Positions 513-16,997 of a stretch of 32,000 bases of DNA are shown here, in pieces. The notes beneath the pieces were generated by a model. It saw only the letters and a list, made by a program, of their open reading frames with translations. It did not search any database and had not been told where the DNA came from. Within the stretch, counting starts at the first letter, position 1. Each line of letters opens with the position of its first letter. This stretch comes from Microcystis aeruginosa NIES-843 (GTDB lineage Bacteria > Cyanobacteriota > Cyanobacteriia > Cyanobacteriales > Microcystaceae), in contig NC_010296.1 in assembly GCF_000010625.1 (NCBI RefSeq), positions 4,170,001 through 4,202,000 of the forward strand, in the 5' to 3' direction. The translations under genes were made by a program, and so were the position numbers.

Positions 513-1459
513 GGTAATGATTCGGTAGTAGTGGCGTAGCTCTCTTGCTTACCTGGTATGAATTGTGTAAAATATTTATTAATAAAAATAATTGGCTCGA
601 ATCAGTCTTTAAACCTCTAGCTTGATCATGACTTTTCTGATAAATATCTTTTTCTGGCTCCTGTCTGGCTTACTGAAATATCAGTCTAGCACCGAACAAA
701 GTACCCCCTTCACCTCCGTTCCCCTGTCCTAATTGTGGTTCTCACCATACGATCAAGAATGGTTCTATTCATAATGGAAAACCCAAACGTCAAGGTAAAG
801 AATGTGGTCGTCAGTTGGTGATCAATCCCACTAATAAAACCGTCTCTGACGAAACCAAACAATTAATTGATAAACTCTTGCTCGAACGAATTTCCTGACG
901 AGGAATTGCTAGAGTAACAGGGGTAAGTTGGTCATGGTTACAAAATTATGTCAACAATAAACTGGCGGCTGTCCCCCGTCAAATAAAGGTTTCGGACAAA
1001 CCAAAAGGTAAATTGGTTAGAGAATGTGATGAAATGTGGTCTTTTGTTTTTTCTAAGACGATAAAGGTCTATATTTGGCGGTTAATTGATAGAAATACAA
1101 GGGAAATTATTGGTTGCTATGCGCGGAGATAGGAGTCGTCAATCAGCCAAAAAACTTTGGGCTAGTTTACCAGGTGTTTACCGACAATGTGCAGTTGCTT
1201 ACACAGACTTTTGGGAGTCATATAAGACAGTAATTCCCAGTAAACGTCATCGACCAGTCGGGAAAGAAACTGGTCAAACTAATCCTATTGAAAGATTAAA
1301 TAATACCTTTCGACAAAGGATTTCTCGGTTGGTGAGAGAGAGTCTATCTTTCTCTAAAAAAATGGAGAATCACGTTGGGGCTGTTTGGTATTTTATCCAT
1401 GACTACAATGCACACCTGGCAAAGGATTAAGCCGCCATCACTACTACAGAATCACCACC
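513..1459 (+). mobile_element. IS1-family insertion sequence, copy A (947 bp), defective
   Basis: Imperfect terminal IRs are GGTAATGATTCGGTAGTAGTG and (reverse complement of the other end) GGTGGTGATTCTGTAGTAGTG. The InsA-like zinc finger reads CPNCGSHHTIKNG..GKECGRQ, followed by an HTH (RGIARVTGVSWSWL) and InsB-like motifs (ECDEMWSFV, YTDFWESY, GKETGQTNPIERLNNTFRQR). The reading frame has an in-frame TGA (ERIS*RGIA), a frameshift near 1130 and no obvious start codon. It matches 16051..16997 in reverse wherever I compared them by eye. Confidence 0.85.
1086..1430 (+). pseudogene. IS1-family transposase (InsB-like) C-terminal remnant ORF
   Basis: The 114-aa ORF carries IS1 InsB-type motifs. It is detached from the upstream InsA/InsB N-terminal frames by a stop codon and a frameshift. 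Confidence 0.7.
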
Positions 1460-1772
1460 CTAAATCTGTATTAGCTGGCAAACTGATATAGGCAGTTAAA
1501 GTCTTAGTTGCTTTACGTTTTAGAACATCTAAAATTTCTAAAATAAAAGCCGTTTTCCCAATACCAATCAAACCGTAAACTAACAATCTTTTACGCTCTT
1601 TTCCTTTTAATAAGCTGAAAACTGGTTTTAATTCTTGACTTCTCCCAGTAAAAACTTTTCTTAACTGCGATTCCCTCAATGTTGAAGCACTTTCAGAAAA
1701 AGGAATTTCCGTTATTCCCCATTGACAATAGATATTATCTAATTCATCCCAAATGCGATCCGCTTCATTCAT
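1460..1772 (-). pseudogene. AAA+ (Orc1/Cdc6- or AAA_16-like) ATPase, N-terminal fragment with Walker A; remainder at 16998..17950
   Basis: FTGRSQELKPVFSLLKGKERKRLLVYGLIGIGKTAFILE contains a GxxGxGKT P-loop. The frame runs into the IS1 end (..PANTDLGW*). Its ATG overlaps the upstream TPR stop as ATGA at 1769-1772. N fragment + C fragment minus the 9-bp TSD = 1257 nt, a 418-aa ORF. Confidence 0.7.
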
Positions 1773-2993
1773 ACAGCTTGTTTCTCCTTAATTTTGGCAA
1801 GGCAATTCAGAACTTCTGCTATTTTAGCAATTTCTTGTTCATTATTCAGTTCTTTAAAAATAAAAGTAGCCTTCTTTAATAATTCTTCAGCTTTTTCGAC
1901 AAAACCAATTTGCAACATGAGTCTGCCTAAACTTGCTTGACAAAAGGCAACACCTCTATCATGTTTTAGATATTCATAAAAGCGCAAAGCATCCCGATAA
2001 TAAATAGAGGCTTTTTCATGGTTTCCAATTAGGTGATGGGTATGAGCAATTTGATAAATGGTATCAGCACGACTTTTGAGATCGTCAAATTGACGATAAA
2101 TTTTAAGACTTTTTTCTAAATAAGCTAATCCTTGATACCATTCTCCTCGATCTACTTTAATTTTACCTAATGTTAACCCCATCTCTGCGGCATTCAGGAA
2201 ATCTCCTGCGGTTTCATATCCTTGTAAAGCGTTTTGATAACACATGACTGCTTGTTTTATATTCTCTGCTTTCTCTCCTCTGATTCTGTTACTGTAAGCA
2301 ATAGCGAGATTATTCTGTATCCTTGCCCAGTCTTGGGGAAAAGCGTCAAAAGTCCTCACTTTCAATGCTTCCTGGTAAGCGGTGATCGCCGTTTCTAAAT
2401 TGTCGGCTTTCTCCCCTCTGATTCTGTCACTGTAAGCATTAGCGAGATTGTTCTGTGTCATTGCCCATTTTTGTGGAAATGCGTCAAAAGTCAACACTTT
2501 TAAGGCTTCTTGGTAAGCAGCGATCGCCTTTTCTAAATTCCCTGCTTGCTCCCCTCTGATTCTGTCACGGTAAGCTTCACCGAGATTATTCTGTATCAAT
2601 GCCCATTGTTCGGGAAATGCCTTAAAAGTATAAACTTGCAAGGCTTCCTGGCAAGCGGCGATCGCCTTTTCTAAATTGTCAGCTTTTTCTCCTCTGATTC
2701 TGTCAATGTAAGCAATAGCGAGATTATTCTGTGTCGCTGCCCATTCTTGGGGAAATGCGTCAAAAGTTCTCACTTTCAAGGCTTCCTGGCAAGCGGCGAT
2801 CGCCCTTTCTAAATTGTCAGCTTTCTCCCCTCTGATTCTGTCACAGTAAGCAACAGCGAGATTATTCTGTGTCATTGCCCAATCTTGGGGGAATGCGTCA
2901 AAAGTGAAGATAGTTAAGGCTATTTCATAACCCGTGATGGCAATTTCTTTGTGGGTGGTGATGTTACCGTGAGGAAACTGGGCAATTAAATTA
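1769..2993 (-). pseudogene. TPR-repeat protein, C-terminal ~3/4 (gene interrupted by ISL3 copy 1)
   Basis: It has about five tandem 42-aa repeats W(A)xTQNNLAxAYxDRIRGEKADNLExAIAAxQEALKVxTFDAFPQ, followed by classical TPRs. The frame is open from 2993 (..NLIAQFPHGNITTHKEIAITGYEIALTIFTFDAFPQDWAMTQNNL). Confidence 0.8.
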
Positions 2994-4415
2994 GGCTCTT
3001 CGTTACCCTTTATGCTAAATCAACATACAAGATGCCAAGATAACATACTTCTAACCCAAAAATTCCGAAAGTTTCTAAAGCCATAGCCTCTCCGTTTTAT
3101 TAGTTTAAGTTTATTGTTGATTCCCTCGACCACCCCATTCGTTGTCCTTCGCTCGAAATAACTAATTATTTCTCCAAACCAGTTTCGGATTGTTTGACAA
3201 CTCTTGGTAAAAACACTGGAGGATTTTGCCAACCATTCCGAGATGGATAGCATTCCCTCTGTCGGATTCTCTGAGGTTTCATAAATCTTTCTAAATTCTT
3301 CCTTTAATTCCTGCATCTTTTTCAAATTTGGGAATTTTTCTTTGATAGCTTCTAGTTTAATTTTTTGGGGTTCCGTTAAATCTTCTTCATTTTTTAACAG
3401 GCTATATTTACTTCGCTTTAAAACTTCTAGCTTCGCTTCTTTTTCCGCTTTCTGTTTTTTATTTTTCTGCGCTTCTACGGCTCTTTTTTCTGCTCTTCTC
3501 TGTTCGTCTAACTCTTGATTAATTTGTTTCATTACATGGAATCTATCGGCGACTACTTCGGCCGATGGCATCAATTCTTTCACCAAATTTTTATAAGGCA
3601 ACCAAAGGTCTATGCTCACTTCTTCAATTTGCTCTAACACCTCTTTTCCCCAGCCCGTAAGCGTTTCTCTCAACTCTTCTTGTGTTCGCTTCTCTAGAAT
3701 AGCTATTAGTTTTCCCGTATCTAAATTTACTAAAACCGCACAGTAATTTTTTTGTCCTTTGACTAGAGCGATTTCATCAATTCCTAGTCTTTTTAATTCC
3801 GATAGGTCTGGCTCTGTAATTTCTTCGGCGATGTCCTCTATCATTCTTTGAATCTCTTCTTCCGTTACGTCATTTATTCGACTAACATTTAAAATATCTC
3901 CTTCTTTTAATTGTTCGAGTATATTTGCGGCTAGTCTTTTCGTATAGGTTCGTTTCTTGGCGACAAAATCTAACTCTTCGCTCAAGGGTCTCTGACAATT
4001 ATCGCACTTAAATTGACGACGATTAATTTGTAGGTATACTGGTTGACCTGAGATTGGTAAATCTTTGACTAAATGTCGATGATTTTGGTGGAGTTTATCG
4101 CTCTCTAACCCACAACGAGGACAGGTTGCTTTTTGATTTTTCGATTCGATTCGGCAAACTATACCGATATTTTCTAGGTGTAGATAGCCTTGAATACAGG
4201 TTCCTTTTAGGTTCAAAAATTTGTCAAGTATCATAAGTAAAATAATCTCGTTTTTGGCTATTATATCAAATCTTAACTCAATTGTCTATCTTTTGGTATT
4301 AACCTGTTTGTGCCTTAAGTCCTTCCCTGTATGGATTTCAGCTACTTTTGAGCGTAGGCGCTCTCATCGAATTTTATTTTAAGTTAATTATTTGCATAAC
4401 AATTCCCGAAGAGCC
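2994..4415 (-). mobile_element. ISL3-family insertion sequence, copy 1 (1422 bp)
   Basis: Both termini carry the IR GGCTCTTCG. An 8-bp direct duplication TTAAATTA sits at 2986-2993 and 4416-4423. It contains a 404-aa transposase. Confidence 0.9.
3020..4234 (-). CDS. ISL3-family transposase
   Basis: The 404-aa ORF has an N-terminal zinc finger (CPRCG..CDNCQ) and the conserved C-terminus NGVVEGINNKLKLIKRRGYGFRNFRNF. It differs from the copy at 14160..15374 at about 5 residues. Confidence 0.9.
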   Translation of the reverse strand: MILDKFLNLKGTCIQGYLHLENIGIVCRIESKNQKATCPRCGLESDKLHQNHRHLVKDLPISGQPVYLQINRRQFKCDNCQRPLSEELDFVAKKRTYTKRLAANILEQLKEGDILNVSRINDVTEEEIQRMIEDIAEEITEPDLSELKRLGIDEIALVKGQKNYCAVLVNLDTGKLIAILEKRTQEELRETLTGWGKEVLEQIEEVSIDLWLPYKNLVKELMPSAEVVADRFHVMKQINQELDEQRRAEKRAVEAQKNKKQKAEKEAKLEVLKRSKYSLLKNEEDLTEPQKIKLEAIKEKFPNLKKMQELKEEFRKIYETSENPTEGMLSISEWLAKSSSVFTKSCQTIRNWFGEIISYFERRTTNGVVEGINNKLKLIKRRGYGFRNFRNFWVRSMLSWHLVC

Positions 4416-4872
4416 TTAAATTACTGAAATAAAAAATATCCGTAACAATAGAATTCGCTTGTTGTGGGGCAACTTGTATTAGTGTTTGTCTTGCCCACTC
4501 ATCTAAAACTTCAATCAAATTTTCATCGAATTTATCCAGATTTTGCGCCCAAAAGGGATAAATTACTTGAGGGTTGGAATTTTCTGAGATTTTTTGTAAT
4601 GTCTCGATTAAGAAATTGAGATAGTTAGTTTCCGTCTTTATAGAGGAAGAGGAATAGCTTTGTAGCAAATTTCCCGCAATATTCATTAACCGATTCGCAT
4701 TATTGAGATCGCTTCTTAGCCTTAGATTATCCGCTACTTTTAATAATTCTGTCACCAAACCCTGATCCAATAGTTCCCGATTTTCCTGTAAAATTCGGGG
4801 TTCATCGCCATCATTGCAGGATAATAGCTGATTAATCAGGTTTAGATAAGCTTGGGTGCGTTGTTCGTTCAT
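4416..4872 (-). pseudogene. TPR-repeat protein, N-terminal fragment (start MNEQRTQAYLNLINQLLSCNDGDEPRILQ..)
   Basis: ATG is at 4872. The helical N-terminal domain is of a type I recall as common on cyanobacterial TPR proteins. 457 nt + 1225 nt (1769..2993) minus the 8-bp TSD = 1674 nt, an uninterrupted 557-aa ORF. The track ORF upstream of 4872 runs into IS701 and is not coding. Confidence 0.7.
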
Positions 4873-4931
4873 GGCGTGGTAAATGATGGCGGTTAATTTA
4901 GTTATCTTTAGCGATAGGTTATTGTTCGGGG

Positions 4932-6371
4932 GTAGGGGCGAAGCATTCGGGCAATAACATATCGCTGAAACCATAAATTCCCTATTGGGACTTAAACGCC
5001 AAATAAAGATCAAATCGAGTATAATCGTTAAAGAGTAAGCACTTTACGTTGAAAGATCAGCGATGAAAGAGACAACCCCAGCCGCAATGCCCCCATGCTT
5101 TGACCGATGGTGTCGGCGGTTTGACAATTGCTTCAAAAACGAAGCGCAAAAAAACGGCTTCAGACAATATTTAGGAGGATTATTAGGGGAAAGTGAGAGG
5201 AAAAACCTGACTCAAATGGCCAATAATGCCGTCGGAGTAGTTTATAACCGATTACATCACTTTTTGACCGAATCTCCTTGGTCAGACCGTCAGGTGAATG
5301 AATGTCGGTTGCAAGTGATGAACCAATGCCGCCAGACGCAAATCCCCCGAGGATTTTCCCTGATTGTCGATGACTCAGGACATCGAAAAAGTGGCAATCT
5401 GACCGCCGGAGTTGGCAGGCAGTACCTAGGAGAAATTGGCAAGACAGACAACGGAATAGTCGCCGTCACTACCCATCTCTACGACGGCAAAAAAAGTGTC
5501 CCCCTAGACAGGGAAATTTATCAACCGGCTAGTTCCTTAGCCGAGGGGAAAGAAGACAAAGAATTTAAGAAGAAACCAGAGATAGCGATAGATTTAATTG
5601 ACCGGAGCTTAACCAGAGGCTATCGACCGAAAATCGTCTTAATAGATGCTGGTTATGGCAACAACACAAATTTTCTCAAAGCCCTGGAAGAAAGAAAGCT
5701 AAAATACTTAGGAGGATTGGCAAAAAATCGAAAAGTAATTATTGAAAAAGAAGGGGGTGTGGAAGAAACAATCCAGCTTGAGCAACTAGCAAAAAGCCTA
5801 TCAGAAAAGGATTGGGAGAAAATCACCCTAAATCTAGATAAAGAGAAAACGGTTTGGGTAGCGGTATTCAGAGCGAAAATATCTCAACTAGAAGGAGAAA
5901 GGAACTTGGCGATCGTCATGAATGCAAGTTCAATGGAAAAAGCAACAGAGGTTGACTATTTCATCACCAATGTAGTTGAGGCAGATACAGTAACAGCGTC
6001 GTGGATAGTCAAGACTTACACCGAAAGAAATTGGGTGGAAGTATTCTACCGAGAAGCCAAAGGATGGTTAGGGTTAAGGGAATATCAAGTCAGGGATAAA
6101 CGAAGCTTACTTCGTCATTTTATCTTGGTGTTTTGTGCCTATACATTTATCCTGTGGCATAAGTTAACTGGGGGATTGCAAAGGCAGTGGGCGAATCGAC
6201 CTTTAAACACTTTTGTGGAAGCCTTGGAAGCTTTTCGGACAGCGATGTCTTTCCGTTTCTTTGAGTGGCTGACCGAGAATCGGGATGTGTTTGCCGCTTA
6301 CAAAGCCAGTTTAGGCTTTGTTTGGGCTTGAAATTTGTTTAAGTCCCACTATCCGAATGCTTCGCCCCTAC
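4932..6371 (+). mobile_element. IS701-like (IS4 superfamily) insertion sequence (~1440 bp)
   Basis: A 19-bp terminal IR GTAGGGGCGAAGCATTCGG sits at 4932-4950, with its reverse complement at 6353-6371, plus a subterminal GGGACTTAAAC on both sides. No clear TSD was found. The right boundary is ambiguous by a few bp because CTAC is shared with the adjacent 17-mer array. Confidence 0.75.
5063..6331 (+). CDS. IS701-family DDE transposase
   Basis: The 422-aa ORF carries motifs typical of IS701: FRQYLGGLL..ERKNLTQMA, LIVDDSGHRKSG, GVGRQYLGEIGKTDNG, VLIDAGYGN, ERNWVEVFYREAKGWLGL. Confidence 0.85.
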   Translation: MKETTPAAMPPCFDRWCRRFDNCFKNEAQKNGFRQYLGGLLGESERKNLTQMANNAVGVVYNRLHHFLTESPWSDRQVNECRLQVMNQCRQTQIPRGFSLIVDDSGHRKSGNLTAGVGRQYLGEIGKTDNGIVAVTTHLYDGKKSVPLDREIYQPASSLAEGKEDKEFKKKPEIAIDLIDRSLTRGYRPKIVLIDAGYGNNTNFLKALEERKLKYLGGLAKNRKVIIEKEGGVEETIQLEQLAKSLSEKDWEKITLNLDKEKTVWVAVFRAKISQLEGERNLAIVMNASSMEKATEVDYFITNVVEADTVTASWIVKTYTERNWVEVFYREAKGWLGLREYQVRDKRSLLRHFILVFCAYTFILWHKLTGGLQRQWANRPLNTFVEALEAFRTAMSFRFFEWLTENRDVFAAYKASLGFVWA

Positions 6372-6421
6372 AGGTTATTTCCCCCTACAGGTTATTTCCC
6401 CCTACAGGTTATTTCCCCCTA
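6371..6421. repeat. 17-bp tandem repeat CAGGTTATTTCCCCCTA x3 (array A)
   Basis: Three perfect units, each ending in TA. The identical array recurs at 10988..11038. Both abut the left end of an IS630-family copy. Confidence 0.9.
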
Positions 6422-6694
6422 CTGGACTGTTTCAGCTAATTTGGTGCAATAGATTCTCCCGATTCCTCCTCCTCAAACACAGGATAAAGATGTTTCAGCT
6501 TGACCCTAGCATCGCTGGTCGTAAACGTCCATATTACTGTAGATGCAGTCTGATTACGTTCTTTTTGCCAGGTTTCTATCTCCCTTTTCAGTTCTTCCTT
6601 GCTAGAAATCCTTCTATCTAAACATTGCCTCGATAAGACGCTTAGTTCAGTTTCGGCTACATTTAACCAGCTACCATTACGAGGTGTGTAATAA
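6422..6694 (-). mobile_element. IS630-family element copy A, distal part (3' end of the transposase)
   Basis: It matches 11039..11311 of the intact copy where compared by eye. The IR is CTGGACTGTTTCAGCTA preceded by TA. It encodes the transposase C-terminus YYTPRNGSWLNVAETELS..SGESIAPN, and the track ORF 6436..6720 reads into the insertion. Confidence 0.85.
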
Positions 6695-6940
6695 CCCACA
6701 TTCCGCACCCTAAGTGTCACAACGTCTCAAAAGAGGAAGGGGCGTGAGTCAAAATACTTATCTAGAGGAGTGAGTTGGCGGCAAGCTGCCGGCAACTAAG
6801 CCGAAAATTTCAGAGTTCCCCCGGTCATTCTCAATAAACAGTGCTTGTTGAGAATGACTAGGCAATCAGACTTAACATCTAGGGGGAGATGTTCCAGTTG
6901 CTCGCTTTGTTTTGTCACCCCTTGAAGTCAATCCATCTGG

Positions 6941-8614
6941 TCAAGATAAGAGATAATATTCCTGGCAAGGTTTGGGAAAAAATCTCAAAATGTTGCGCCT
7001 CTCATCCGTTAAGTTGCTAATCTTTTGATTGTCTTGAATACGGACGAGATGAATCCCTTGAAAGCCCTGAAATATCCAGCGTAACGTCGGTCGGTCAGTT
7101 AACTTACCCAACGGATTTTTCAGTCCCGTCTCCTGCTGTTTTAAACTTAAACGAAGTTGTCTTTGACCAATAGTATAAACCAGCAGGCACAAGCCCATGA
7201 GCATGGCCATGACCTCGATTCTATGGGGAGATTTGAGAAAGACACTGTGGGCAAAAAAGCAGGGGTCTTTGAGAAAAGAAAATCCTCTTTCCGGAGCTTG
7301 TTGCCCTTTATATTTTTTGAGTATATCCTCACTGCTTAATCGTTGTTTCTCCAAATCGTTAGTTGCTAAAACGAATCGTCCTGCTCGTTTCTTTAGCCTC
7401 TCAATGGCGGTCAAATTCAACTCTAATTCGGCTTGAACTTGATAGCTTTGAGAGGGTAAATCGTCTTTTGATTTGAGTTTTGACCCCTGGGACTCAGGCG
7501 GAATGAGATTGACTTTAATCTCCGTTAACTGATGAGATTTTAAGGAGTCAGATAATCCTTTGGCTATCGCCAACGCCACCGCTCTATTCTCAAATTCTCT
7601 TCGGGATAGTTGCCGGATTTTTTCTTGGGCAGAATTCTTTTCCTGCTCGATTTTTTTCTCTAATTTTTTCAAGTCTGATTCTTGTCTAGCTTGACTTTCA
7701 ACTAGCAACCATCTTTGTTCTATCCCCCCATAGTTAGAGATGGTTTCCCGCCAGGAATAACCCGGTATTTCTGAATCGGTTAACTCTTTTTCTGAGATGC
7801 TATCAACCAACTCTTGAGCCTCTTTAATGCTTAATGGTACTCGAGACAACCAACGCATTTCTTTCATTAGTTTTAAATTCTCTTTGCTATAGAGGGCGCT
7901 ATCGCCGACTATTAAACTGTCAAAGTCAACTTGTTTTTTAAATTCTCGGGCGATTTGACCAAAAACCGCTTTGTCCGCTTCATTTCCGTCCCCTACTTTC
8001 AGGAATAAAGGTACATCTCCATCCCCACTTACGATTAAGTCAATCATAAATTGTTTTAAGTCAGGTCTTCGGTCGCGGGAGTATCCGTAGGTAATTTTTA
8101 TTGGCTGTTGTCTGGTTTCAATTTCTTCTCCCACTGCTCCTGATTTCAGGATTTCTACTGTTGGGTATTCCTTTTTATATTCTCCTTCTACTGATAGAGA
8201 AGTCGAATCTAAATGGGAGTTCTCGGTTGCTACACCAAATTTTTTCACGGCGGCTAAACTGATGAGTAGGAAAATACCCGAAACATCCAGTTGATAAAGT
8301 TTGTCCATTACTCGACCAATTTTATCATCATTCAAGTGCTTGGGTTCGATGCCCTCTCCCAGCAGATGTTCGGTTGCTTTATCTTCAAAAAATTGAGGAA
8401 ATAAATACAAGGCTCGGGAGACAAATCCCAATCCATTCAGGATAATTGCTTTCACTACTTGCCCCGCTGTGACAATTTCTCCTCGCTCAATTGAGACTTG
8501 TTCGTTGATAATTTCAACGATTCCTATTTCATCGATAATTCCGGCTACTAATCCCAGATGGTCTAGATTTTTGACTTCAATTTCTGTTGATTGATTCATG
8601 GTCGAACAGTCCAC
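6941..8614 (-). CDS. IS1634-family (IS4-like) DDE transposase
   Basis: The 557-aa ORF has the N-terminus NLDHLGLVAGIIDEIGIVEIIN..GQVVKAIILNGLGF, then HLDSTSLSVEG, GYSRDRRPDLKQF and VGDSALYS, with a long coiled region before the C-terminal domain. Confidence 0.8.
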   Translation of the reverse strand: MDCSTMNQSTEIEVKNLDHLGLVAGIIDEIGIVEIINEQVSIERGEIVTAGQVVKAIILNGLGFVSRALYLFPQFFEDKATEHLLGEGIEPKHLNDDKIGRVMDKLYQLDVSGIFLLISLAAVKKFGVATENSHLDSTSLSVEGEYKKEYPTVEILKSGAVGEEIETRQQPIKITYGYSRDRRPDLKQFMIDLIVSGDGDVPLFLKVGDGNEADKAVFGQIAREFKKQVDFDSLIVGDSALYSKENLKLMKEMRWLSRVPLSIKEAQELVDSISEKELTDSEIPGYSWRETISNYGGIEQRWLLVESQARQESDLKKLEKKIEQEKNSAQEKIRQLSRREFENRAVALAIAKGLSDSLKSHQLTEIKVNLIPPESQGSKLKSKDDLPSQSYQVQAELELNLTAIERLKKRAGRFVLATNDLEKQRLSSEDILKKYKGQQAPERGFSFLKDPCFFAHSVFLKSPHRIEVMAMLMGLCLLVYTIGQRQLRLSLKQQETGLKNPLGKLTDRPTLRWIFQGFQGIHLVRIQDNQKISNLTDERRNILRFFPKPCQEYYLLS

Positions 8615-10004: not shown

Positions 10005-10985
10005 TAATAAATTTCCAGTCTTCTAGCTAAACGATGAGCAACGGGTGCTGGAAATGCTTCATAAAGCGAGGCTATGTTATGAGTGTTGAGATTATCACAG
10101 ACGAGCTTGACTTTTCGAGCCTTTGGATAGTCCACATCCAATAATTGACGAATTTCTTCTGCCCAATCTATTCGGGTTCGACTATCTCGGTTACTCACCC
10201 GTCTCCATCCTCGATGGGGGTCAAAAAACATGAACAAGGCTTGAACCCCTTCACGACTATAGTGATAGTCTTCTTTTTTATCTTGTCCAGGTTGCATGGG
10301 TATCGGAGGGTAAACTTCTCCAAGTAGTTGCTTTGATGCTTCATCCATCGCGATTAACGGTTCTTCTTCCGATGGCTGAGTGCCATACAGGTCAAGGACA
10401 ACTTCCATCTGGGCAACAAATCGGGCTAAATCCTGTTCCGGAATACAGTATCTTTGGGTTTTCCAAGGGCGTAATTGGTTTTTTTTAGAGTACGCCACAC
10501 CGTTGGACTGGAAATCTCGGTGATAATTTGTCTTTGTTTGAGTTCCGAGGTTAATAGTCGGATTGTCCACTCGGCTCGGCCAGATGGTGGCTCCGAACAG
10601 CACAGGGCAATGATTTGGGCGGCGGCGGCTCCATCAACTTTTGCCGGAGTGGGGGGAGTTTTTCTCGATTTCCGTTCTAATGCTGGTTTTTCGCCTTTTT
10701 GAAGAAATCTTTGACGAATACGTCCCACTGTATTTCTATGAACTTCTAAAGCTTCGCCTATTTCTTCATCTGTCCATTTCCTTTTCGCCTGTTCTCCCTC
10801 GTCACACATCAGCAAAATCCGAGCGTGGAGAATTTTTTTAGCTGGTGCATAGCCATTACGACTGATTTGTTCGAGGTTTTCTCTTTGTTCCCCTGTTAGA
10901 TTGACTTTATCTCGCCGACCTCTTCCCATGATTGATGTCCTCTGCTTGTTCGAGCTATTGCCCTATTTTAGCTGAAACAGTCCAC
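10005..10985 (-). mobile_element. IS630-family element copy A, proximal part (orfA plus truncated orfB)
   Basis: It matches 11306..12286 where compared by eye. orfA 10426..10929 is identical to 11727..12230. orfB is cut at the TAATAA junction (..RRLEIYY then non-homologous). The right IR TAGCTGAAACAGTCCAC is followed by TA at 10986-10987. Confidence 0.85.
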
Positions 10986-10987
10986 TA

Positions 10988-11038
10988 CAGGTTATTTCCC
11001 CCTACAGGTTATTTCCCCCTACAGGTTATTTCCCCCTA
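10988..11038. repeat. 17-bp tandem repeat CAGGTTATTTCCCCCTA x3 (array B)
   Basis: Identical to 6371..6421. It lies between the right end of IS630 copy A and the left end of copy B. Confidence 0.9.
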
Positions 11039-11052
11039 CTGGACTGTTTCAG

Positions 11053-12230
11053 CTAATTTGGTGCAATAGATTCTCCCGATTCCTCCTCCTCAAACACAGG
11101 ATAAAGATGTTTCAGCTTGACCCTAGCATCGCTGGTCGTAAACGTCCATATTACTGTAGATGCAGTCTGATTACGTTCTTTTTGCCAGGTTTCTATCTCC
11201 CTTTTCAGTTCTTCCTTGCTAGAAATCCTTCTATCTAAACATTGCCTCGATAAGACGCTTAGTTCAGTTTCGGCTACATTTAACCAGCTACCATTACGAG
11301 GTGTGTAATAAATTTCCAGTCTTCTAGCTAAACGATGAGCAACGGGTGCTGGAAATGCTTCATAAAGCGAGGCTATGTTATGAGTGTTGAGATTATCACA
11401 GACGAGCTTGACTTTTCGAGCCTTTGGATAGTCCACATCCAATAATTGACGAATTTCTTCTGCCCAATCTATTCGGGTTCGACTATCTCGGTTACTCACC
11501 CGTCTCCATCCTCGATGGGGGTCAAAAAACATGAACAAGGCTTGAACCCCTTCACGACTATAGTGATAGTCTTCTTTTTTATCTTGTCCAGGTTGCATGG
11601 GTATCGGAGGGTAAACTTCTCCAAGTAGTTGCTTTGATGCTTCATCCATCGCGATTAACGGTTCTTCTTCCGATGGCTGAGTGCCATACAGGTCAAGGAC
11701 AACTTCCATCTGGGCAACAAATCGGGCTAAATCCTGTTCCGGAATACAGTATCTTTGGGTTTTCCAAGGGCGTAATTGGTTTTTTTTAGAGTACGCCACA
11801 CCGTTGGACTGGAAATCTCGGTGATAATTTGTCTTTGTTTGAGTTCCGAGGTTAATAGTCGGATTGTCCACTCGGCTCGGCCAGATGGTGGCTCCGAACA
11901 GCACAGGGCAATGATTTGGGCGGCGGCGGCTCCATCAACTTTTGCCGGAGTGGGGGGAGTTTTTCTCGATTTCCGTTCTAATGCTGGTTTTTCGCCTTTT
12001 TGAAGAAATCTTTGACGAATACGTCCCACTGTATTTCTATGAACTTCTAAAGCTTCGCCTATTTCTTCATCTGTCCATTTCCTTTTCGCCTGTTCTCCCT
12101 CGTCACACATCAGCAAAATCCGAGCGTGGAGAATTTTTTTAGCTGGTGCATAGCCATTACGACTGATTTGTTCGAGGTTTTCTCTTTGTTCCCCTGTTAG
12201 ATTGACTTTATCTCGCCGACCTCTTCCCAT
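11053..12230 (-). CDS. IS630-family transposase orfAB, needs a -1 frameshift at an A8 run
   Basis: orfA (167 aa, two HTH regions) and orfB (DDE part: DEAS.., VCDNLNTH, WLNVAETELS) overlap at 11727-11904. Shifting -1 on CTA AAA AAA A yields ..VWRTLKKNQLRPWKTQRYCIPEQD.. . As I recall it, that is the usual contiguous IS630 sequence. Confidence 0.75.
11780..11787 (-). other. A8 slippery run (T8 on the + strand), candidate -1 recoding site; same site in copy A at 10479-10486
   Basis: This is the only place where the orfA and orfB frames can be joined to give the conserved LKKNQLRPW segment. The A AAA AAA heptamer is a classical slippery motif. Confidence 0.5.
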
Positions 12231-12285
12231 GATTGATGTCCTCTGCTTGTTCGAGCTATTGCCCTATTTTAGCTGAAACAGTCCA

Positions 12286-12819
12286 CTACATTGGTTTGAA
12301 TTTATTAAGATTGTTCTCGTCTTGTTCCCAATTTCGCGGATTGTCAAGAATGTATTGCCGGATTTTTTGATAAGAATCTTCATTGCGAATGATATGTTCA
12401 TAATAATTGCGCTGCCAAACTTTGAGGTGATCGCCACATAAACGATTAATTTTACGACTAGAAATTGATTTGAAATTCTGCACAATAGCCCCCAAAGATT
12501 CCGGCATTGTACCGTGAGTATATTGAGAATCGTATTCGGTCTTTTCCAGATCATAATTTTGTATTACTATAATTCCATGAATATGATTGGGCATGACAAT
12601 AAAAGCATCTAGTTCAATAAATTTAAAATTTAGAGGTAGTCTATACCATACCGCTTCAATAGTATCACCAAGTAAATTCTGCTCCATATTTACTTCAACA
12701 ATTTCACCAAATAGATACTGCTTCTGATAAGAACAAATTGTTATATAATAAGCTCCATTAAGTCTATAATCATAGCCTTTTAAGCGAATAGATTGTCGAT
12801 GTTTTTTGGGTTCATTCAT
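12286..12819 (-). CDS. IS200/RAYT-like Y1 (HUH) transposase
   Basis: It carries the HUH motif MPNHIHGII and the tyrosine region WQRNYYEHIIRN, with the N-terminus RLKGYDYRLNGAYYITICS. ATG at 12819 is preferred because the track ORF extends upstream without homology. The stop TAG is formed partly by the last base of IS630 copy B. Confidence 0.7.
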   Translation of the reverse strand: MNEPKKHRQSIRLKGYDYRLNGAYYITICSYQKQYLFGEIVEVNMEQNLLGDTIEAVWYRLPLNFKFIELDAFIVMPNHIHGIIVIQNYDLEKTEYDSQYTHGTMPESLGAIVQNFKSISSRKINRLCGDHLKVWQRNYYEHIIRNEDSYQKIRQYILDNPRNWEQDENNLNKFKPM

Positions 12820-13002
12820 GGCGTGGAGGATGGTGGCGGTTAATTCAATTATAAGCGATTCATCGGCAATCATCAAGAGTTGGGGATTGGTGGTAAGATT
12901 GTCAGAAAAGCGATCGCACTGAATCAAGGCTGAATAATGAGGGGCTATGATAATAGGTCGTGGTTAGAATTTTTAAAACAGTCTATCAAATCCTCACAAC
13001 AA

Positions 13003-13371
13003 TCATCGAGTAATCCAAGCACTAAGAAATTCAACCTGATCGATCATTTCTTCGGCTGATTTAGTGGCAATTAGCTGTAAAATCCCTCGCATAACTTCCC
13101 CCATTGAATATCTTTGTTGTTGGACTAGAATGATTCCTGCATGATTTCTTTTTTGTTGCAAGAAAAGTGTATGTAAATAATAAAAATCTCTAACATTAGA
13201 ACTATAAAGACTACACCCCTGAGAAGTTGCCCAGATTAATTGTTCTTCATCAGAGTATCCCCATCTATTAGCTTCTAAAGCAGTAATCACATCAACACCT
13301 CTACTTTTCAAAATAAAAGCAAGCGATCGCAATGTAGAATCCTCATCCATATATAAGCTAATTCTACTCAT
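13003..13371 (-). CDS. DUF5615-like (Mut7-C/PIN-like) putative toxin
   Basis: MSRISLYMDEDS..GVDVITALEANRWGYSDEEQLIWATSQG resembles DUF5615 partners of DUF433 proteins. The ATG at 13371 overlaps the upstream gene by 8 nt (..TATGAGTAG..). Confidence 0.55.
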   Translation of the reverse strand: MSRISLYMDEDSTLRSLAFILKSRGVDVITALEANRWGYSDEEQLIWATSQGCSLYSSNVRDFYYLHTLFLQQKRNHAGIILVQQQRYSMGEVMRGILQLIATKSAEEMIDQVEFLSAWITR

Positions 13372-13657
13372 AAGAAGAAGAATAATGTAATGCTTCAATG
13401 CGATCTGCTTCGGCGGCTTCGGCTATAATTTCTGCTTCTATTGTTTCTTTGTTAGTATGATAGTAAGTTAGAGCGGCATAAACTTGTGCCAAAGAAAGAT
13501 GAGGGATTTCATCGGCAATTTCTTCAGGGCTATATCCTAATTTATACCAGATCACTATTCTTCGTACAGTAACAGCAGTTCCCGCGATAATAGGACAACC
13601 TCCATGAATTTTGGGATCGCTTTTTATGAAAGTGCCAATATTGATCTCTGTTAACAT
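13364..13657 (-). CDS. DUF433 domain protein (putative antitoxin/HTH partner)
   Basis: The signature DPKIHGGCPIIAGTAVTVRRIVIWYKLGYSPEEIADEIPHLSLAQVYAALTYY is typical of DUF433. Confidence 0.7.
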   Translation of the reverse strand: MLTEINIGTFIKSDPKIHGGCPIIAGTAVTVRRIVIWYKLGYSPEEIADEIPHLSLAQVYAALTYYHTNKETIEAEIIAEAAEADRIEALHYSSSYE

Positions 13658-13760
13658 AACTTTCTTCGATTCAGTTTCAACTAATTAAACTACATAGGAT
13701 TCTATGCTTTTATCACCATTCTAGCATAGCCCAAGCATTGGTCGGGGTAGGGGATTGAAT

Positions 13761-13978
13761 GGGGAGATTATCAGAATTCTATCACAGGGACGATAGCCGA
13801 AAAAAATAATAGTCAATCAAACAATCGTCTGTACTGTGATTTGAATGATTGAATGAGGACTATGATTGTTAGGATTATGATTGAATGAGGACGATGATTG
13901 TTAGGGTTATGGCGCGATTATTACAATTATATCCCAGAGATCATAGCCGAGAAAAATCCTAGTTAATCAAATAATCGT
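13761..13978. repeat. ~128-bp intergenic tandem repeat, left part (about 1.5 units with an internal 33-bp duplication)
   Basis: The unit is CTGTACTGTGATTTGAATGATTGAATGAGGACTATGATTGTTAGGATTATGG..GCGATTATTACAAT..ATAGCCGAGAAAAATC.TAGTTAATCAAATAATCGT. The array continues at 15401 on the other side of ISL3 copy 2. Confidence 0.75.
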
Positions 13979-15400
13979 GGCTCTTCGGGAATTGTTATGC
14001 AAATAATTAACTTAAAATAAAATTCGATGAGAGCGCCTACGCTCAAAAGTAGCTGAAATCCATACAGGGAAGGACTTAAGGCACAAACAGGTTAATACCA
14101 AAAGATAGACAATTGAGTTAAGATTTGATATAATAGCCAAAAACGAGATTATTTTACTTATGATACTTGACAAATTTTTGAACCTAAAAGGAACCTGTAT
14201 TCAAGGCTATCTACACCTAGAAAATATCGGTATAGTTTGCCGAATCGAATCGAAAAATCAAAAAGCAACCTGTCCTCGTTGTGGGTTAGAGAGCGATAAA
14301 CTCCACCAAAATCATCGACATTTAGTCAAAGATTTACCAATCTCAGGTCAACCAGTATACCTACAAATTAATCGTCGTCAATTTAAGTGCGATAATTGTC
14401 AGAGACCCTTTAGCGAAGAGTTAGATTTTGTCGCCAAGAAACGAACCTATACGAAAAGACTAGCCGCAAATATACTCGAACAATTAAAAGAAGGAGATAT
14501 TTTAAATGTTAGTCGAATAAATGACGTAACGGAAGAAGAGATTCAAAGAATGATAGAGGACATCGCCGAAGAAATTACAGAGCCAGACCTATCGGAATTA
14601 AAAAGACTAGGAATTGATGAAATCGCTCTAGTCAAAGGACAAAAAAATTACTGTGCGGTTTTAGTAAATTTAGATACGGGAAAACTAATAGCTATTCTAG
14701 AGAAGCGAACACAAGAAGAGTTGAGAGAAACGCTTACGGGCTGGGGAAAAGAGGTGTTAGAGCAAATTGAAGAAGTGAGCATAGACCTTTGGTTGCCTTA
14801 TAAAAATTTGGTGAAAGAATTGATGCCATCGGCCGAAGTAGTCGCCGATAGATTCCATGTAATGAAACAAATTAATCAAGAGTTAGACGAACAGAGAAGA
14901 GCGGAAAAAAGAGCCGTAGAAGCGCAGAAAAATAAAAAACAGAAAGCGGAAAAAGAAGCGAAGCTAGAAGTTTTAAAGCGAAGTAAATATAGCCTGTTAA
15001 AAAATGAAGAAGATTTAACGGAACCCCAAAAAATTAAACTAGAAGCTATCAAAGAAAAATTCCCAAATTTGAAAAAGATGCAGGAATTAAAGGAAGAATT
15101 AAGAACGATTTATGAAACCTCAAAGAATCCGACAGAGGGACTGCTATCCATCTCGGAATGGTTGGCAAAATCCTCCAGTGTTTTTACCAAGAGTTGTCAA
15201 ACAATCCGAAACTGGTTTGGAGAAATCATTAGTTATTTTGAGCGAAGGACAACGAATGGGGTGGTCGAGGGAATCAACAATAAACTTAAACTAATAAAAC
15301 GGAGAGGCTATGGCTTTAGAAACTTTCGGAATTTTTGGGTTAGAAGTATGTTATCTTGGCATCTTGTATGTTGATTTAGCATAAAGGGTAACGAAGAGCC
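13979..15400 (+). mobile_element. ISL3-family insertion sequence, copy 2 (1422 bp)
   Basis: It has the same GGCTCTTCG IRs as copy 1. The 8-bp TSD ATAATCGT is at 13971-13978 and 15401-15408. It is inserted at a unit boundary of the 128-bp repeat array. Confidence 0.9.
14160..15374 (+). CDS. ISL3-family transposase
   Basis: The 404-aa ORF has about 5 substitutions relative to 3020..4234 (for example CQRPF vs CQRPL, EELRTIYETSK vs EEFRKIYETSE). Confidence 0.9.
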   Translation: MILDKFLNLKGTCIQGYLHLENIGIVCRIESKNQKATCPRCGLESDKLHQNHRHLVKDLPISGQPVYLQINRRQFKCDNCQRPFSEELDFVAKKRTYTKRLAANILEQLKEGDILNVSRINDVTEEEIQRMIEDIAEEITEPDLSELKRLGIDEIALVKGQKNYCAVLVNLDTGKLIAILEKRTQEELRETLTGWGKEVLEQIEEVSIDLWLPYKNLVKELMPSAEVVADRFHVMKQINQELDEQRRAEKRAVEAQKNKKQKAEKEAKLEVLKRSKYSLLKNEEDLTEPQKIKLEAIKEKFPNLKKMQELKEELRTIYETSKNPTEGLLSISEWLAKSSSVFTKSCQTIRNWFGEIISYFERRTTNGVVEGINNKLKLIKRRGYGFRNFRNFWVRSMLSWHLVC

Positions 15401-15535
15401 ATAATCGTCTGTACTGTGATTTGAATGATTGAATGAGGACTATGATTGTTAGGATTATGGGGCGATTATTACAATAATATCCCAGTGATGATAGCCGAGA
15501 AAAATCATAGTTAATCAAATAATCAAAAAAATCAT
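15401..15535. repeat. ~128-bp intergenic tandem repeat, right unit
   Basis: It is near-identical to 13829..13978, minus the internal 33-bp duplication. Confidence 0.75.
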
Positions 15536-15608
15536 AGTTTAGACGGGATTGGGTGCGTTGTTGATTCATCGGTTAAAATAAGATTAATTTAGAATTAAGG
15601 ATTGAGTT

Positions 15609-15842
15609 ATGCCGCAACAAACCTGTGAAGCCGTCTTTGAAAATGGCGTTTTACGTCCTCTTAGTAATCTCCAACTCAATGAAGGACAGTGCGTTAAACT
15701 CACTATAGCATCCAATTCAATTTCCCAGCTTACTCCCCAAAAATGGTCAGAAACGGGGATAATCGCCCAGTTAACAGCAAATCCGATTAAAATTGAAGAT
15801 TTCCATCCTCTTACCAGAGAAGAAGCGAATGAACGCTGGTGA
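15609..15842 (+). CDS. DUF104-type antitoxin (AF2212-like), partner of the PIN toxin
   Basis: The N-terminus CEAVFENGVLRPLSNLQLNEGQCVKLTI is the DUF104 signature. Its stop overlaps the PIN start (ATGAACGCTGGTGA). Confidence 0.65.
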   Translation: MPQQTCEAVFENGVLRPLSNLQLNEGQCVKLTIASNSISQLTPQKWSETGIIAQLTANPIKIEDFHPLTREEANERW

Positions 15843-16050
15843 ATCTCAACCCTTCTTTATTGATTCTAATATTTGGCTGTATCGCTTCATTGTTAATTGT
15901 AGCGATCCTAATGCCATCCCTAAGCAACAAATAGCTACAAATATTACGAATCAAGGAAACTTGATAATTAGTACACAAGTTGTCAATGAGGTTTGCTCAA
16001 ATTTAATCCGCAAAGCAGGGTTTAATAATTTACAGATTCAAAATCTACTT
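15829..16050 (+). pseudogene. PIN-domain (VapC-like) toxin, N-terminal fragment; C-terminal half at 280..512
   Basis: MNAGESQPFFIDSNIWLYRF.. carries the first acidic PIN motif. The frame runs into the IS1 end at 16051. The last 8 bp, ATCTACTT, equal the reverse complement of 505-512. Confidence 0.75.
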
Positions 16051-16997
16051 GGTGGTGATTCTGTAGTAGTGATGGCGGCTTAATCCTTTGCCAGGTGTGC
16101 ATTGTAGTCATGGATAAAATACCAAACAGCCCCAACGTGATTCTCCATTTTTTTAGAGAAAGATAGACTCTCTCTCACCAACCGAGAAATCCTTTGTCGA
16201 AAGGTATTATTTAATCTTTCAATAGGATTAGTTTGACCAGTTTCTTTCCCGACTGGTCGATGACGTTTACTGGGAATTACTGTCTTATATGACTCCCAAA
16301 AGTCTGTGTAAGCAACTGCACATTGTCGGTAAACACCTGGTAAACTAGCCCAAAGTTTTTTGGCTGATTGACGACTCCTATCTCCGCGCATAGCAACCAA
16401 TAATTTCCCTTGTATTTCTATCAATTAACCGCCAAATATAGACCTTTATCGTCTTAGAAAAAACAAAAGACCACATTTCATCACATTCTCTAACCAATTT
16501 ACCTTTTGGTTTGTCCGAAACCTTTATTTGACGGGGGACAGCCGCCAGTTTATTGTTGACATAATTTTGTAACCATGACCAACTTACCCCTGTTACTCTA
16601 GCAATTCCTCGTCAGGAAATTCGTTCGAGCAAGAGTTTATCAATTAATTGTTTGGTTTCGTCAGAGACGGTTTTATTAGTGGGATTGATCACCAACTGAC
16701 GACCACATTCTTTACCTTGACGTTTGGGTTTTCCATTATGAATAGAACCATTCTTGATCGTATGGTGAGAACCACAATTAGGACAGGGGAACGGAGGTGA
16801 AGGGGGTACTTTGTTCGGTGCTAGACTGATATTTCAGTAAGCCAGACAGGAGCCAGAAAAAGATATTTATCAGAAAAGTCATGATCAAGCTAGAGGTTTA
16901 AAGACTGATTCGAGCCAATTATTTTTATTAATAAATATTTTACACAATTCATACCAGGTAAGCAAGAGAGCTACGCCACTACTACCGAATCATTACC
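16051..16997 (-). mobile_element. IS1-family insertion sequence, copy B (947 bp), defective, inverted relative to copy A
   Basis: It is the reverse complement of 513..1459 wherever I compared by eye. That covers both ends, the TGA site, about 250 bp of the left part and the 114-aa ORF. Confidence 0.85.
16080..16424 (-). pseudogene. IS1-family transposase (InsB-like) C-terminal remnant ORF
   Basis: The 114-aa product is identical to that of 1086..1430. Confidence 0.7.

What the first reader, a model, noticed from the sequence alone, without database searches (positions are those of the whole stretch)
513..16997. About 15.5-kb inversion by recombination between two inverted IS1-family copies, shown by exchanged target-site duplications
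The two 947-bp IS1 copies are inverted relative to each other, and neither has a matching TSD of its own. The flank of copy A's left end (505-512, reverse complement ATCTACTT) matches the flank of copy B at 16043-16050 (ATCTACTT). The flank of copy A's right end (1460-1468, reverse complement CAGATTTAG) matches the flank of copy B at 16998-17006. The same pairing splits two genes. PIN has its N-terminus at 15829-16050 and its C-terminus at 280-512; the ATPase has its N-terminus at 1460-1772 and its C-terminus at 16998-17950. Re-inverting 513-16997 in silico and removing the IS plus one TSD copy gives an uninterrupted 148-aa PIN ORF and a 418-aa ATPase ORF. The order of events was therefore two independent IS1 insertions (8- and 9-bp TSDs) followed by homologous recombination between them. 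Both orientations may coexist in a population.
Basis: partly seen in the sequence, partly recalled or inferred. Interest (0 to 1): 0.7.

Follow-up and report, generated by a model that had tools for sequence, protein, structure and literature searches.

The report
IS1-bounded 14.6-kb inversion in Microcystis
Two identical, oppositely oriented copies of a small mobile element (IS1 family) bracket a real 14.6-kb flipped DNA segment in a Microcystis chromosome, splitting a PIN toxin gene and an ATPase gene; this is a clean example of a well-known kind of rearrangement.

Summary
Two 947-bp IS1-family copies (513-1459, 16051-16997) are 100% identical and inverted. Their 8-bp and 9-bp target-site duplications are swapped between copies. 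Undoing the inversion restores a 148-aa PIN gene and a 418-aa STAND-type ATPase gene. Relatives prove the ancestral order. Five IS-free contigs join the two ATPase halves through one copy of CAGATTTAG. One contig (L008) carries both genes intact in the predicted order. The complete Nanopore-based genome of Microcystis NIES-102 has the same IS1 pair and the same inversion, so it is not an assembly artefact. A metagenome contig (L066) has the IS1 in PIN at the same site but an intact ATPase in un-inverted order, so the PIN insertion came first. One-step intramolecular replicative transposition from the PIN copy gives exactly the same flank pattern. I favour the two-step route (about 0.55 against 0.38), because this IS usually makes simple insertions and the segment is an IS sink. 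Both copies are defective (stop codon plus frameshift), so they moved with transposase supplied in trans. Evidence for coexisting orientations is one ambiguous short contig. This is an ordinary mechanism, documented well.

The parts
513..1459 (+). IS1-family copy A (947 bp; left end GGTAATGATTCGG..., right end ...GAATCACCACC). It is defective: an in-frame TGA and a 1-nt frameshift.
   Evidence: Pfam DDE_Tnp_IS1 64.9 bits. Intact 269-aa homologues at 86-88% identity.
16051..16997 (-). IS1-family copy B, the reverse complement of copy A and 100% identical to it.
1460..16050 (.). Inverted unique segment (14,591 bp). The crossover point inside the identical IS copies cannot be located.
   Evidence: L002, L008, L010, L048 and L066 join rc(1460...) directly to 16998....
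505..512 (-). Half of the PIN-site target duplication (reverse complement ATCTACTT).
   Evidence: Intact PIN genes in L008, L040 and L044 carry a single copy.
16043..16050 (+). Other half of the PIN-site target duplication, ATCTACTT.
1460..1468 (-). Half of the ATPase-site target duplication (reverse complement CAGATTTAG).
   Evidence: L001, L002, L008, L010 and L048 carry a single copy.
16998..17006 (+). Other half of the ATPase-site target duplication, CAGATTTAG.
15829..16050 (+). PIN toxin gene, N-terminal 74 codons.
280..512 (-). PIN toxin gene, C-terminal part (74 codons plus the stop at 280-282, once the duplicated 8 bp is removed).
15609..15842 (+). AF2212-like antitoxin gene, overlapping the PIN start. 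It is the operon partner of PIN.
   Evidence: Pfam PF01954. The antitoxin-PIN pair is seen in L005, L008, L040 and L044.
1460..1772 (-). STAND/AAA_16 ATPase gene, N-terminal part.
16998..17950 (+). STAND/AAA_16 ATPase gene, C-terminal part.
1769..2993 (-). TPR-repeat gene upstream of the ATPase, overlapping its start. Its 5' end is cut by ISL3 copy X1, and the remaining ORF is 1769-2875.
   Evidence: NIES-102 aa across the empty X1 site.
2994..4415 (-). ISL3-family copy X1, with its own 8-bp duplication TTAAATTA at 2986-2993 and 4416-4423. Serves as an internal control.
   Evidence: The site is empty in NIES-102.
13979..15400 (+). ISL3-family copy X2, with its own 8-bp duplication ATAATCGT at 13971-13978 and 15401-15408. 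Serves as an internal control.
   Evidence: The site is empty in NIES-102 (8-bp overlap).
18207..20759 (-). Leucyl-tRNA synthetase gene. It is the fixed outside anchor that lies next to the intact ATPase gene in all relatives.

Best explanation
This is a real chromosomal inversion in a Microcystis strain closely related to NIES-102. Shown: the ancestral layout was LeuRS | ATPase<-TPR ... antitoxin->PIN->DUF1902. Shown by a surviving progenitor: a non-autonomous IS1-family element first inserted into PIN after codon 74, making the 8-bp duplication ATCTACTT. Inferred: a second copy of the same element then inserted, in the opposite orientation, into the ATPase gene a few kb away, making the 9-bp duplication CAGATTTAG. 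Host homologous recombination between the two 947-bp identical inverted copies then flipped the segment between them. This left each IS copy flanked by one half of each duplication and separated the halves of both genes. Because both copies carry the same stop codon and frameshift, the transposase was supplied in trans by another IS1 relative. After the inversion, the dead segment went on collecting other IS elements.
For: The inverted copies are identical and the duplications are swapped. The joined ORFs are exact: 148 and 418 aa. They match full-length homologues end to end: P0001 at 99% over 418 aa, Microcystis sp. T1-4 at 100%, and P0121 at 99% over 148 aa. The reconstructed empty sites (300+300 nt) align without gaps across the joins: 100% to L008 and L010, 99% to L001, L002 and L048, and about 97% for PIN to L040, L044 and L046. 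L008 has both genes intact in the predicted order on one contig. NIES-102 (AP019314.1) has the same junctions and is 100% identical over the first 2,993 nt, including IS1 copy A, and 99.8-99.9% over the other shared blocks. Its assembly used 112x Nanopore coverage (PMC6930136). L066 has IS1 at the same PIN site in the same orientation, with an intact ATPase in ancestral order. Two of the three other copies of this IS in NIES-102 have ordinary direct duplications of 8 and 9-11 bp, so simple insertion is its usual mode. The segment is an IS sink: at least 7 further IS insertions lie in about 5 kb of ancestral DNA. A second independent hit there is therefore not surprising. The nested ISL3 pair keeps its own duplications, which shows that the flank test discriminates.
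Against: The final structure cannot tell two steps from one step. No genome or contig was found with both sites occupied and un-inverted on the ATPase side, or with IS1 only in the ATPase gene. With only 5 copies in 5.87 Mb, two copies within about 5 kb is unlikely under random insertion (about 0.02). That favours a local, possibly single, event. The two copies are 100% identical, as fresh replicas would be.
Confidence: 0.55

Rival explanations
1. One-step origin. The IS1 copy already resident in PIN attacked the ATPase gene on the same chromosome by replicative transposition, in the 'trans' geometry. Replication through the element created the second, inverted copy, the 9-bp duplication and the inversion all at once. 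No separate insertion and no homologous recombination were needed.
For: Working through the strand-transfer geometry from a PIN donor reproduces the window exactly: each copy keeps one old flank and gains one half of the new duplication (derived). A progenitor with only the PIN copy exists (L066). No un-inverted doubly occupied state was found. The copies are 100% identical. The target lay only about 3-5 kb from the donor, and chance proximity is about 0.02 for 5 copies. PMC4471558 argues the same for IS26-bounded inversions where a relative has only one copy, and notes that IS1-family members appear to use replicative transposition.
Against: The other evaluable copies of this IS show plain direct duplications, which means simple insertions. 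The element is defective and needs transposase in trans. The region accumulates independent insertions of many IS families, which explains the proximity without a local mechanism. If contig L035 is real, homologous recombination does act on this pair.
Confidence: 0.38
2. Assembly artefact. The segment between two identical 947-bp inverted repeats was oriented wrongly by the assembler.
For: Inverted repeats longer than the reads are a classic cause of wrongly oriented segments. One short contig (L035) shows the alternative junction pairing.
Against: An independent complete genome assembled with 112x Nanopore reads (NIES-102) has the same orientation. It differs from the window by several IS insertions, so the two assemblies are independent. 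The window also resolves 1.3-1.4-kb repeats elsewhere, which points to a long-read assembly.
Confidence: 0.03
3. The present order is ancestral, and the relatives are the rearranged ones. Alternatively, the element is a programmed invertible switch driven by a site-specific recombinase.
For: None found.
Against: The present order splits two genes that are intact in many lineages, including other cyanobacterial genera. No invertase or integrase gene and no short recombinase sites are present. The repeats are whole IS elements.
Confidence: 0.01

Closest known systems
IS-bounded inversions by homologous recombination between inverted IS copies (for example IS1/IS150 in E. coli long-term lines and IS481 in Bordetella pertussis; cited from my own knowledge, not checked here)
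   Same: Two identical inverted IS copies, reciprocal exchange of target-site duplications, inversion of everything between them, and potential reversibility.
   Different: The host is a cyanobacterium. The IS copies are non-autonomous. The segment is small (14.6 kb) and made mostly of dead genes and other IS elements, so no phenotype is expected.
IS26 intramolecular replicative transposition 'in trans' giving inversions (He et al. 2015, PMC4471558)
   Same: The same diagnostic pattern of inverted IS copies with matching flanks in inverted configuration, and a relative that carries only one of the two copies.
   Different: IS26 belongs to the IS6 family and transposes only replicatively. This element is IS1 family, and its other copies show simple insertions. 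Here both duplications can be read, because the first insertion was a simple one.
ISMae3, the IS1-like element of Microcystis aeruginosa (PMC11448079)
   Same: An IS1-family element in the same genus, present in multiple identical copies, mobile on laboratory time scales, and known to inactivate genes.
   Different: Identity to ISMae3 was not tested, because no ISfinder sequence was available. ISMae3 is described with a 737-bp coding region. The copies here have a broken reading frame, and the closest intact relatives are 269 aa at 86-88% identity.
Site-specific invertons (Hin, Gin, Fim type; from my own knowledge)
   Same: A DNA segment flanked by inverted repeats that can exist in two orientations.
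   Different: There is no recombinase gene, no short specific sites and no promoter or gene-switch logic. The inversion destroys rather than toggles the genes.

Membership tests
IS1 family insertion sequence | Transposase with the IS1-type DDE catalytic domain | tested here: met
   Pfam DDE_Tnp_IS1 scores 64.9 bits against a cut-off of 24.1 on the conceptually repaired translation. Hundreds of homologues are named IS1 family transposase or InsB.
IS1 family insertion sequence | N-terminal zinc-finger and helix-turn-helix DNA-binding part | tested here: inconclusive
   A CPNCGSHH...CGRQ motif is visible in the translation and is conserved in intact homologue P0241. The Pfam IS1 zinc-finger model did not score on this protein.
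IS1 family insertion sequence | Short element (about 0.7-1 kb) with imperfect terminal inverted repeats beginning GGT | tested here: met
   The element is 947 bp. The ends are GGTAATGATTCGGTAGTAGTG and GGTGGTGATTCTGTAGTAGTG.
IS1 family insertion sequence | Target-site duplication of 8-9 bp | tested here: met
   The duplication is 8 bp at PIN and 9 bp at the ATPase gene. It is 8 bp and 9-11 bp at two other copies in NIES-102.
IS1 family insertion sequence | Autonomous: an intact transposase reading frame | tested here: not met
   There is a TGA where the intact homologue has Leu, and a 1-nt insertion inside the DDE domain. Both lesions are in both copies. The element is therefore a non-autonomous member.
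Inversion by homologous recombination between two independently inserted IS copies | Two inverted, near-identical copies with reciprocally exchanged duplications | tested here: met
Inversion by homologous recombination between two independently inserted IS copies | Relatives without the IS show the co-linear, un-inverted order | tested here: met
   L002, L008, L010, L048 and L066.
Inversion by homologous recombination between two independently inserted IS copies | An intermediate with both sites occupied, each with its own direct duplication, un-inverted | tested here: inconclusive
   L035 shows PIN-N-ATCTACTT-IS-ATCTACTT-PIN-C at 100% identity, but with only 22 nt beyond the IS and with the ATPase state unknown. 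No contig spans the IS on the ATPase side.
Inversion by homologous recombination between two independently inserted IS copies | Dependence on the host recombination system | not testable with these tools
   This needs genetics.
One-step intramolecular replicative transposition (duplicative inversion) | Inverted copies whose flanks pair across copies in inverted configuration | tested here: met
   The pattern is the same as for homologous recombination, so it does not discriminate.
One-step intramolecular replicative transposition (duplicative inversion) | A progenitor with a single copy at one of the two sites | tested here: met
   L066 has IS1 in PIN only, with the ATPase gene intact. This is also expected under the two-step route.
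One-step intramolecular replicative transposition (duplicative inversion) | The element transposes replicatively (forms cointegrates) | not testable with these tools
   Only a literature statement for the IS1 family is available (PMC4471558). The other copies here look like simple insertions.

The most novel reading that the evidence does not exclude
The segment may be a naturally bistable, IS1-bounded invertible region, with both orientations circulating in Microcystis bloom populations. Contig L035 carries the window-specific ISL3 X2 marker yet shows the un-inverted PIN junction pair. Alternatively or in addition, the inversion may have been made in one step by replicative transposition of a defective IS1 copy mobilised in trans. 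That would be direct natural evidence for the replicative pathway in cyanobacterial IS1 elements.
Probability: 0.3. Interest if true: 0.35.

Novelty: new member of a known kind. Interest (0 to 1): 0.2.

Why it matters
The case is unusually complete. The ancestral state, a singly occupied progenitor and the inverted product are all recovered from natural samples. It also warns that swapped target-site duplications alone do not prove 'two insertions plus recombination'. For Microcystis it illustrates how quickly IS elements remodel the genome. Two strains that are 99.8-100% identical over their shared DNA in this region differ by at least seven IS insertions within about 15 kb. It also shows a toxin-antitoxin module and a TPR/STAND-ATPase pair in a variable island being destroyed. 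It does not reveal a new mechanism or a new type of element.

Tried and rejected
1. Two scans of the JGI metagenome-contig collection with degenerate patterns for the IS left-end and right-end junctions found nothing.
2. The single genome-contig scan with the joined ATPase returned only Microcystis sp. T1-4, which has an intact gene. Neither NIES-102 nor the window's own genome is in that one-genome-per-species set.
3. Exact-protein look-ups of the four gene fragments found the doubly disrupted state in only one complete genome, NIES-102. The first look-up of the 121-aa PIN-C product failed because of its non-ATG start.
4. PADLOC found no defence-system match for the ATPase, PIN or DUF790 proteins, and only a generic TPR model for the TPR protein.
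5. L031 is unresolved. It reads PIN-N, then an IS1 whose right two-thirds are identical and whose left third is divergent, then an unrelated flank. Its tail matches none of the fetched loci. It could be recombination with a third IS1 copy or a chimeric contig.
6. I considered assembly artefact, 'present order is ancestral' and a site-specific inverton, and rejected all three (see the rival explanations).
7. I considered a 9-bp duplication at PIN using the first G of the IS. I rejected it because the same 947-bp element gives an unambiguous 9-bp duplication at the ATPase site.
Full report
**Observation**

The window holds two 947-bp repeats, 513-1459 and 16051-16997. They are exact reverse complements of each other.

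- The 8 bases left of copy A (505-512, AAGTAGAT) are the reverse complement of the 8 bases left of copy B (16043-16050, ATCTACTT).
- The 9 bases right of copy A (1460-1468, CTAAATCTG) are the reverse complement of the 9 bases right of copy B (16998-17006, CAGATTTAG).
- Neither copy has a direct repeat of its own.
- At fixed positions, a chance match of 17 bases has probability about 6e-11.
- Joining 15829-16050 to rc(504-280) gives an open 148-aa frame. Joining rc(1772-1460) to 17007-17950 gives an open 418-aa frame.

The unique inverted DNA is 1460-16050 (14,591 bp).

**What the repeats are**

- The conceptually repaired translation hits Pfam DDE_Tnp_IS1 at 64.9 bits against a cut-off of 24.1.
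- It matches hundreds of 269-272-aa proteins that their sources call IS1 family transposases. The best are 86-88% identical.
- The ends, GGTAATGATTC... and GGTGGTGATTC..., are imperfect inverted repeats.
- Aligned with an intact homologue (P0241), the window's element has TGA where the homologue has Leu (LLERIS*RGIARV). It also has one extra base inside the catalytic domain (CYA-c-GDRSRQ).
- Both copies share both lesions, so the element is a non-autonomous IS1-family member that needs transposase in trans.
- A Microcystis paper calls the IS1-like element of this genus ISMae3 (PMC11448079). I could not test identity to it.

**What the split genes are**

- The 148-aa product is a PIN-domain protein (Pfam 1.7e-11). 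An AF2212-like antitoxin gene (15609-15842) precedes it and overlaps its start.
- The 418-aa product is an AAA_16/ATPase_2/nSTAND6-type NTPase. A TPR-repeat gene (1769-2875) precedes it and overlaps its start.
- Both joined proteins align end to end with full-length homologues.
  - ATPase: P0001 at 99% identity and 100% coverage over 418 aa, plus more than 100 homologues of 410-430 aa. Microcystis sp. T1-4 is 100% identical over residues 1-418.
  - PIN: P0121 at 99% over 148 aa, plus many 148-aa homologues across cyanobacteria.

**Ancestral order**

- Metagenome contig L002 matches rc(window 3130-1460) at 99.8%. It then runs straight into window 16998-20790 at 98.9%, and the two matches overlap by exactly the 9 bp CAGATTTAG.
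- L001, L008, L010 and L048 (Microcystis sp. T1-4) show the same empty site.
- L008 carries, on one contig, LeuRS, the 42-aa ORF, the intact ATPase, TPR, a 177-aa gene, the antitoxin and an intact PIN. This is exactly the order obtained by re-inverting the window.
- L040 and L044-L046 show antitoxin followed by intact PIN. In L044-L046, DUF1902 follows PIN, which matches what lies left of the window in NIES-102.
- Reconstructed empty sites of 300+300 nt align without gaps across the joins. The ATPase site is 100% identical to L008 and L010 and 98.8-99.3% identical to L001, L002 and L048. The PIN site is 96.7-97.6% identical to L040, L044, L045 and L046.

**Not an artefact, and shared with NIES-102**

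- The complete genome AP019314.1 (Microcystis aeruginosa/viridis NIES-102) has the same four junctions and the same orientation.
- It is 100% identical to the window over the first 2,993 nt, which includes IS1 copy A. The other shared blocks are 99.8-99.9% identical.
- That genome was assembled from 112x Nanopore plus Illumina reads (PMC6930136).
- The window is a different strain.
  - It carries two ISL3 copies (2994-4415, 13979-15400) that NIES-102 lacks.
  - It carries a DDE_5 element (4986-6348, duplication CTAT) that NIES-102 lacks.
  - It carries a block of IS630-family and IS1634-like elements (about 6353-12282) that NIES-102 lacks.
  - It carries an IS110-family element (23739-25039) that NIES-102 lacks.
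  - NIES-102 has its own IS630 insertion near window 4621.
- Two independent assemblies therefore agree, and the inversion predates their split.

**Internal control**

The nested ISL3 pair is inverted, 1,422 bp long and 99% identical. Each copy keeps its own 8-bp duplication: TTAAATTA around X1 and ATAATCGT around X2. Both sites are empty in NIES-102. The flank test therefore distinguishes recombined from unrecombined pairs.

**Order of events**

- Contig L066 (ENA ERZ9422605 NODE_1085, 9,563 nt, coverage 7.8) carries 400 nt of the IS1 right end, 100% identical to the window's copy.
- The junction in L066 is ...CACCACC|AAGTAGAT|PIN-N, the same as in the window.
- L066 then continues through the antitoxin, the 177-aa gene, TPR, an intact 418-aa ATPase (empty site, 9-bp overlap), the 42-aa ORF, LeuRS, BON and CCG.
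- This is a singly occupied, un-inverted progenitor, so the PIN insertion came first.
- I found no contig with IS1 in the ATPase gene alone, and none spanning the IS on the ATPase side.

**Mechanism**

It does not.

- I worked through intramolecular replicative transposition in the inversion geometry, from a donor in PIN to a target in the ATPase gene. The product is PIN-C | L-IS-R | rc(T) | ATPase-N ... PIN-N | R-IS-L | T | ATPase-C, which is the window exactly.
- He et al. made the same point for IS26 (PMC4471558). They re-interpreted an 'insertion then inversion' case as a single step because a relative had only one copy. They also note that IS1-family members appear to transpose replicatively.
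- Points for the one-step route:
  - It is more parsimonious.
  - The two copies are 100% identical.
  - NIES-102 has only five copies of this IS in 5.87 Mb. Two copies within about 5 kb has a probability of about 0.02 under random insertion.
- Points for the two-step route:
  - Two of the three other copies in NIES-102 have ordinary direct duplications: TTAAACATTTC (9-11 bp) and AAAACTTC (8 bp). One of these copies is 100% identical to the window's. The third copy is truncated at its right end. Simple insertion of this defective element in trans is therefore its usual behaviour.
  - The segment is an IS sink that has taken at least seven further independent insertions from four other families. 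That removes most of the proximity argument.
- I put the two-step route at about 0.55 and the one-step route at about 0.38. Either way, the two inverted 947-bp identical copies are now a substrate for further flipping by homologous recombination.

**Do both orientations coexist?**

- L035 (JGI 3300042932, 1,649 nt) is 100% identical to the window from inside ISL3 X2 through the antitoxin, PIN-N and the whole IS1. It then continues for 22 nt into PIN-C rather than ATPase-C, giving ATCTACTT on both sides of the IS.
- If L035 is real, a strain carrying the window-specific X2 marker has the un-inverted PIN junctions. Given that NIES-102 is inverted but lacks X2, this would imply flip-back by recombination.
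- However, all four IS/flank junctions are the same in both orientations. A low-coverage assembler path through a 947-bp repeat can produce this contig, so L035 is only a hint.
- L031 shows PIN-N joined through a mosaic IS1 to unrelated DNA. That is either recombination with a third copy or a chimera.
- L002 combines the ISL3 X1 marker with an empty ATPase site. This conflicts with a simple tree and suggests inter-strain recombination or a chimeric contig.

**Comparison with what is known, and verdict**

IS-bounded inversions with exchanged duplications are textbook. The alternative replicative route is also described. Microcystis genomes are known to be IS-rich and rearranged (PMC6930136, PMC11448079). 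This specific inversion does not appear to have been described, but it is a new instance of a known kind, not a new mechanism. No recombinase, switchable promoter or other sign of a programmed function is present, and both affected operons are simply destroyed. The finding is correct and well argued, its mechanistic 'therefore' is over-stated, and its interest is modest.

Noticed in passing
window 513-1459 and 16051-16997; L063, L064 and L065 (NIES-102): The IS1 element is non-autonomous: it has a TGA in place of Leu and a 1-nt frameshift in the DDE domain. Yet NIES-102 holds five copies at 99.7-100% identity, two of them with normal direct duplications. A defective IS1 is therefore being mobilised in trans.
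   Followed up: partly
window 2994-4415 and 13979-15400: A second, nested pair of inverted repeats (ISL3 family, 1,422 bp, 99% identical) lies inside the inverted segment. Each copy keeps its own 8-bp duplication and both are absent from NIES-102. This pair is a ready substrate for a further 9.6-kb inversion. X1 cuts the 5' end of the TPR gene.
   Followed up: yes
window 4986-12290: This 7.3-kb stretch is an IS graveyard that NIES-102 lacks. It holds a DDE_5 element (4986-6348, 12-bp perfect terminal repeats, duplication CTAT). It holds two copies of a roughly 1.3-kb IS630-family element inserted into a native 17-nt tandem repeat (CCCCTACAGGTTATTTC). The first of these is split at 6694/10000 by a 3.3-kb element with 17-bp terminal repeats (duplication TAATAA), which itself carries an IS1634-like (DUF4277) gene and an IS630-like transposase gene.
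   Followed up: partly
window 23739-25039: A 1,301-bp IS110-family element (DEDD_Tnp_IS110 plus Transposase_20, in two overlapping ORFs) is absent from NIES-102.
   Followed up: partly
window 2216-2929 (TPR gene); L001, L008, L010, L021, L023, L048, L066: The TPR gene contains 138-nt tandem repeats at 78-88% identity. Its length varies widely between strains, from 368 to 717 aa or more, so repeat number changes quickly.
   Followed up: no
interval between LeuRS (18207-20759) and the antitoxin (15609); L004, L005, L009, L044, L045: This interval is a variable island. Different Microcystis strains carry a CHAT-TPR protein (1,123-1,163 aa), a PLD-helicase (940 aa), a 1,829-aa protein, or the TPR plus STAND-ATPase pair seen here. 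Several toxin-antitoxin pairs (PIN/AF2212, HicAB, DUF433/DUF5615) lie next to it. It looks like a defence or TA island, but PADLOC gave no specific match.
   Followed up: partly
window 13727-13976 and 15403-15524: Units of about 150 nt are tandemly repeated upstream of the antitoxin gene. ISL3 X2 inserted at a unit boundary, which is why direct repeats appear to flank it.
   Followed up: partly
window 29993-30244: About ten copies of a 21-nt tandem repeat (TGCTCCTGTGCTGCGGCCGCC) lie inside a 311-aa ORF on the minus strand that has a Uma2 (putative restriction endonuclease) domain.
   Followed up: no
window 25071-25296, 27800-28020, 29403-29635: Three copies of a roughly 220-nt repeat (83-90% identical, one of them inverted) contain GGGGTGT runs. 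They flank the DUF790 gene and neighbouring genes and look like MITEs.
   Followed up: no
L002 (ENA ERZ27268119 k141_72909) against the window: This contig has the window-specific ISL3 X1 junction together with an empty IS1 site in the ATPase gene. It is 99.8% identical to the window on one side of that site and 98.9% on the other. This suggests inter-strain recombination or a chimeric metagenome contig.
   Followed up: no
L031 (JGI 3300043335) 997-2943: The IS1 copy at PIN is a mosaic: positions 302-947 are identical to the window's copy and positions 82-301 are divergent. It is followed by DNA unrelated to any fetched locus. It could be recombination with a third IS1 copy or an assembly chimera.
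   Followed up: partly
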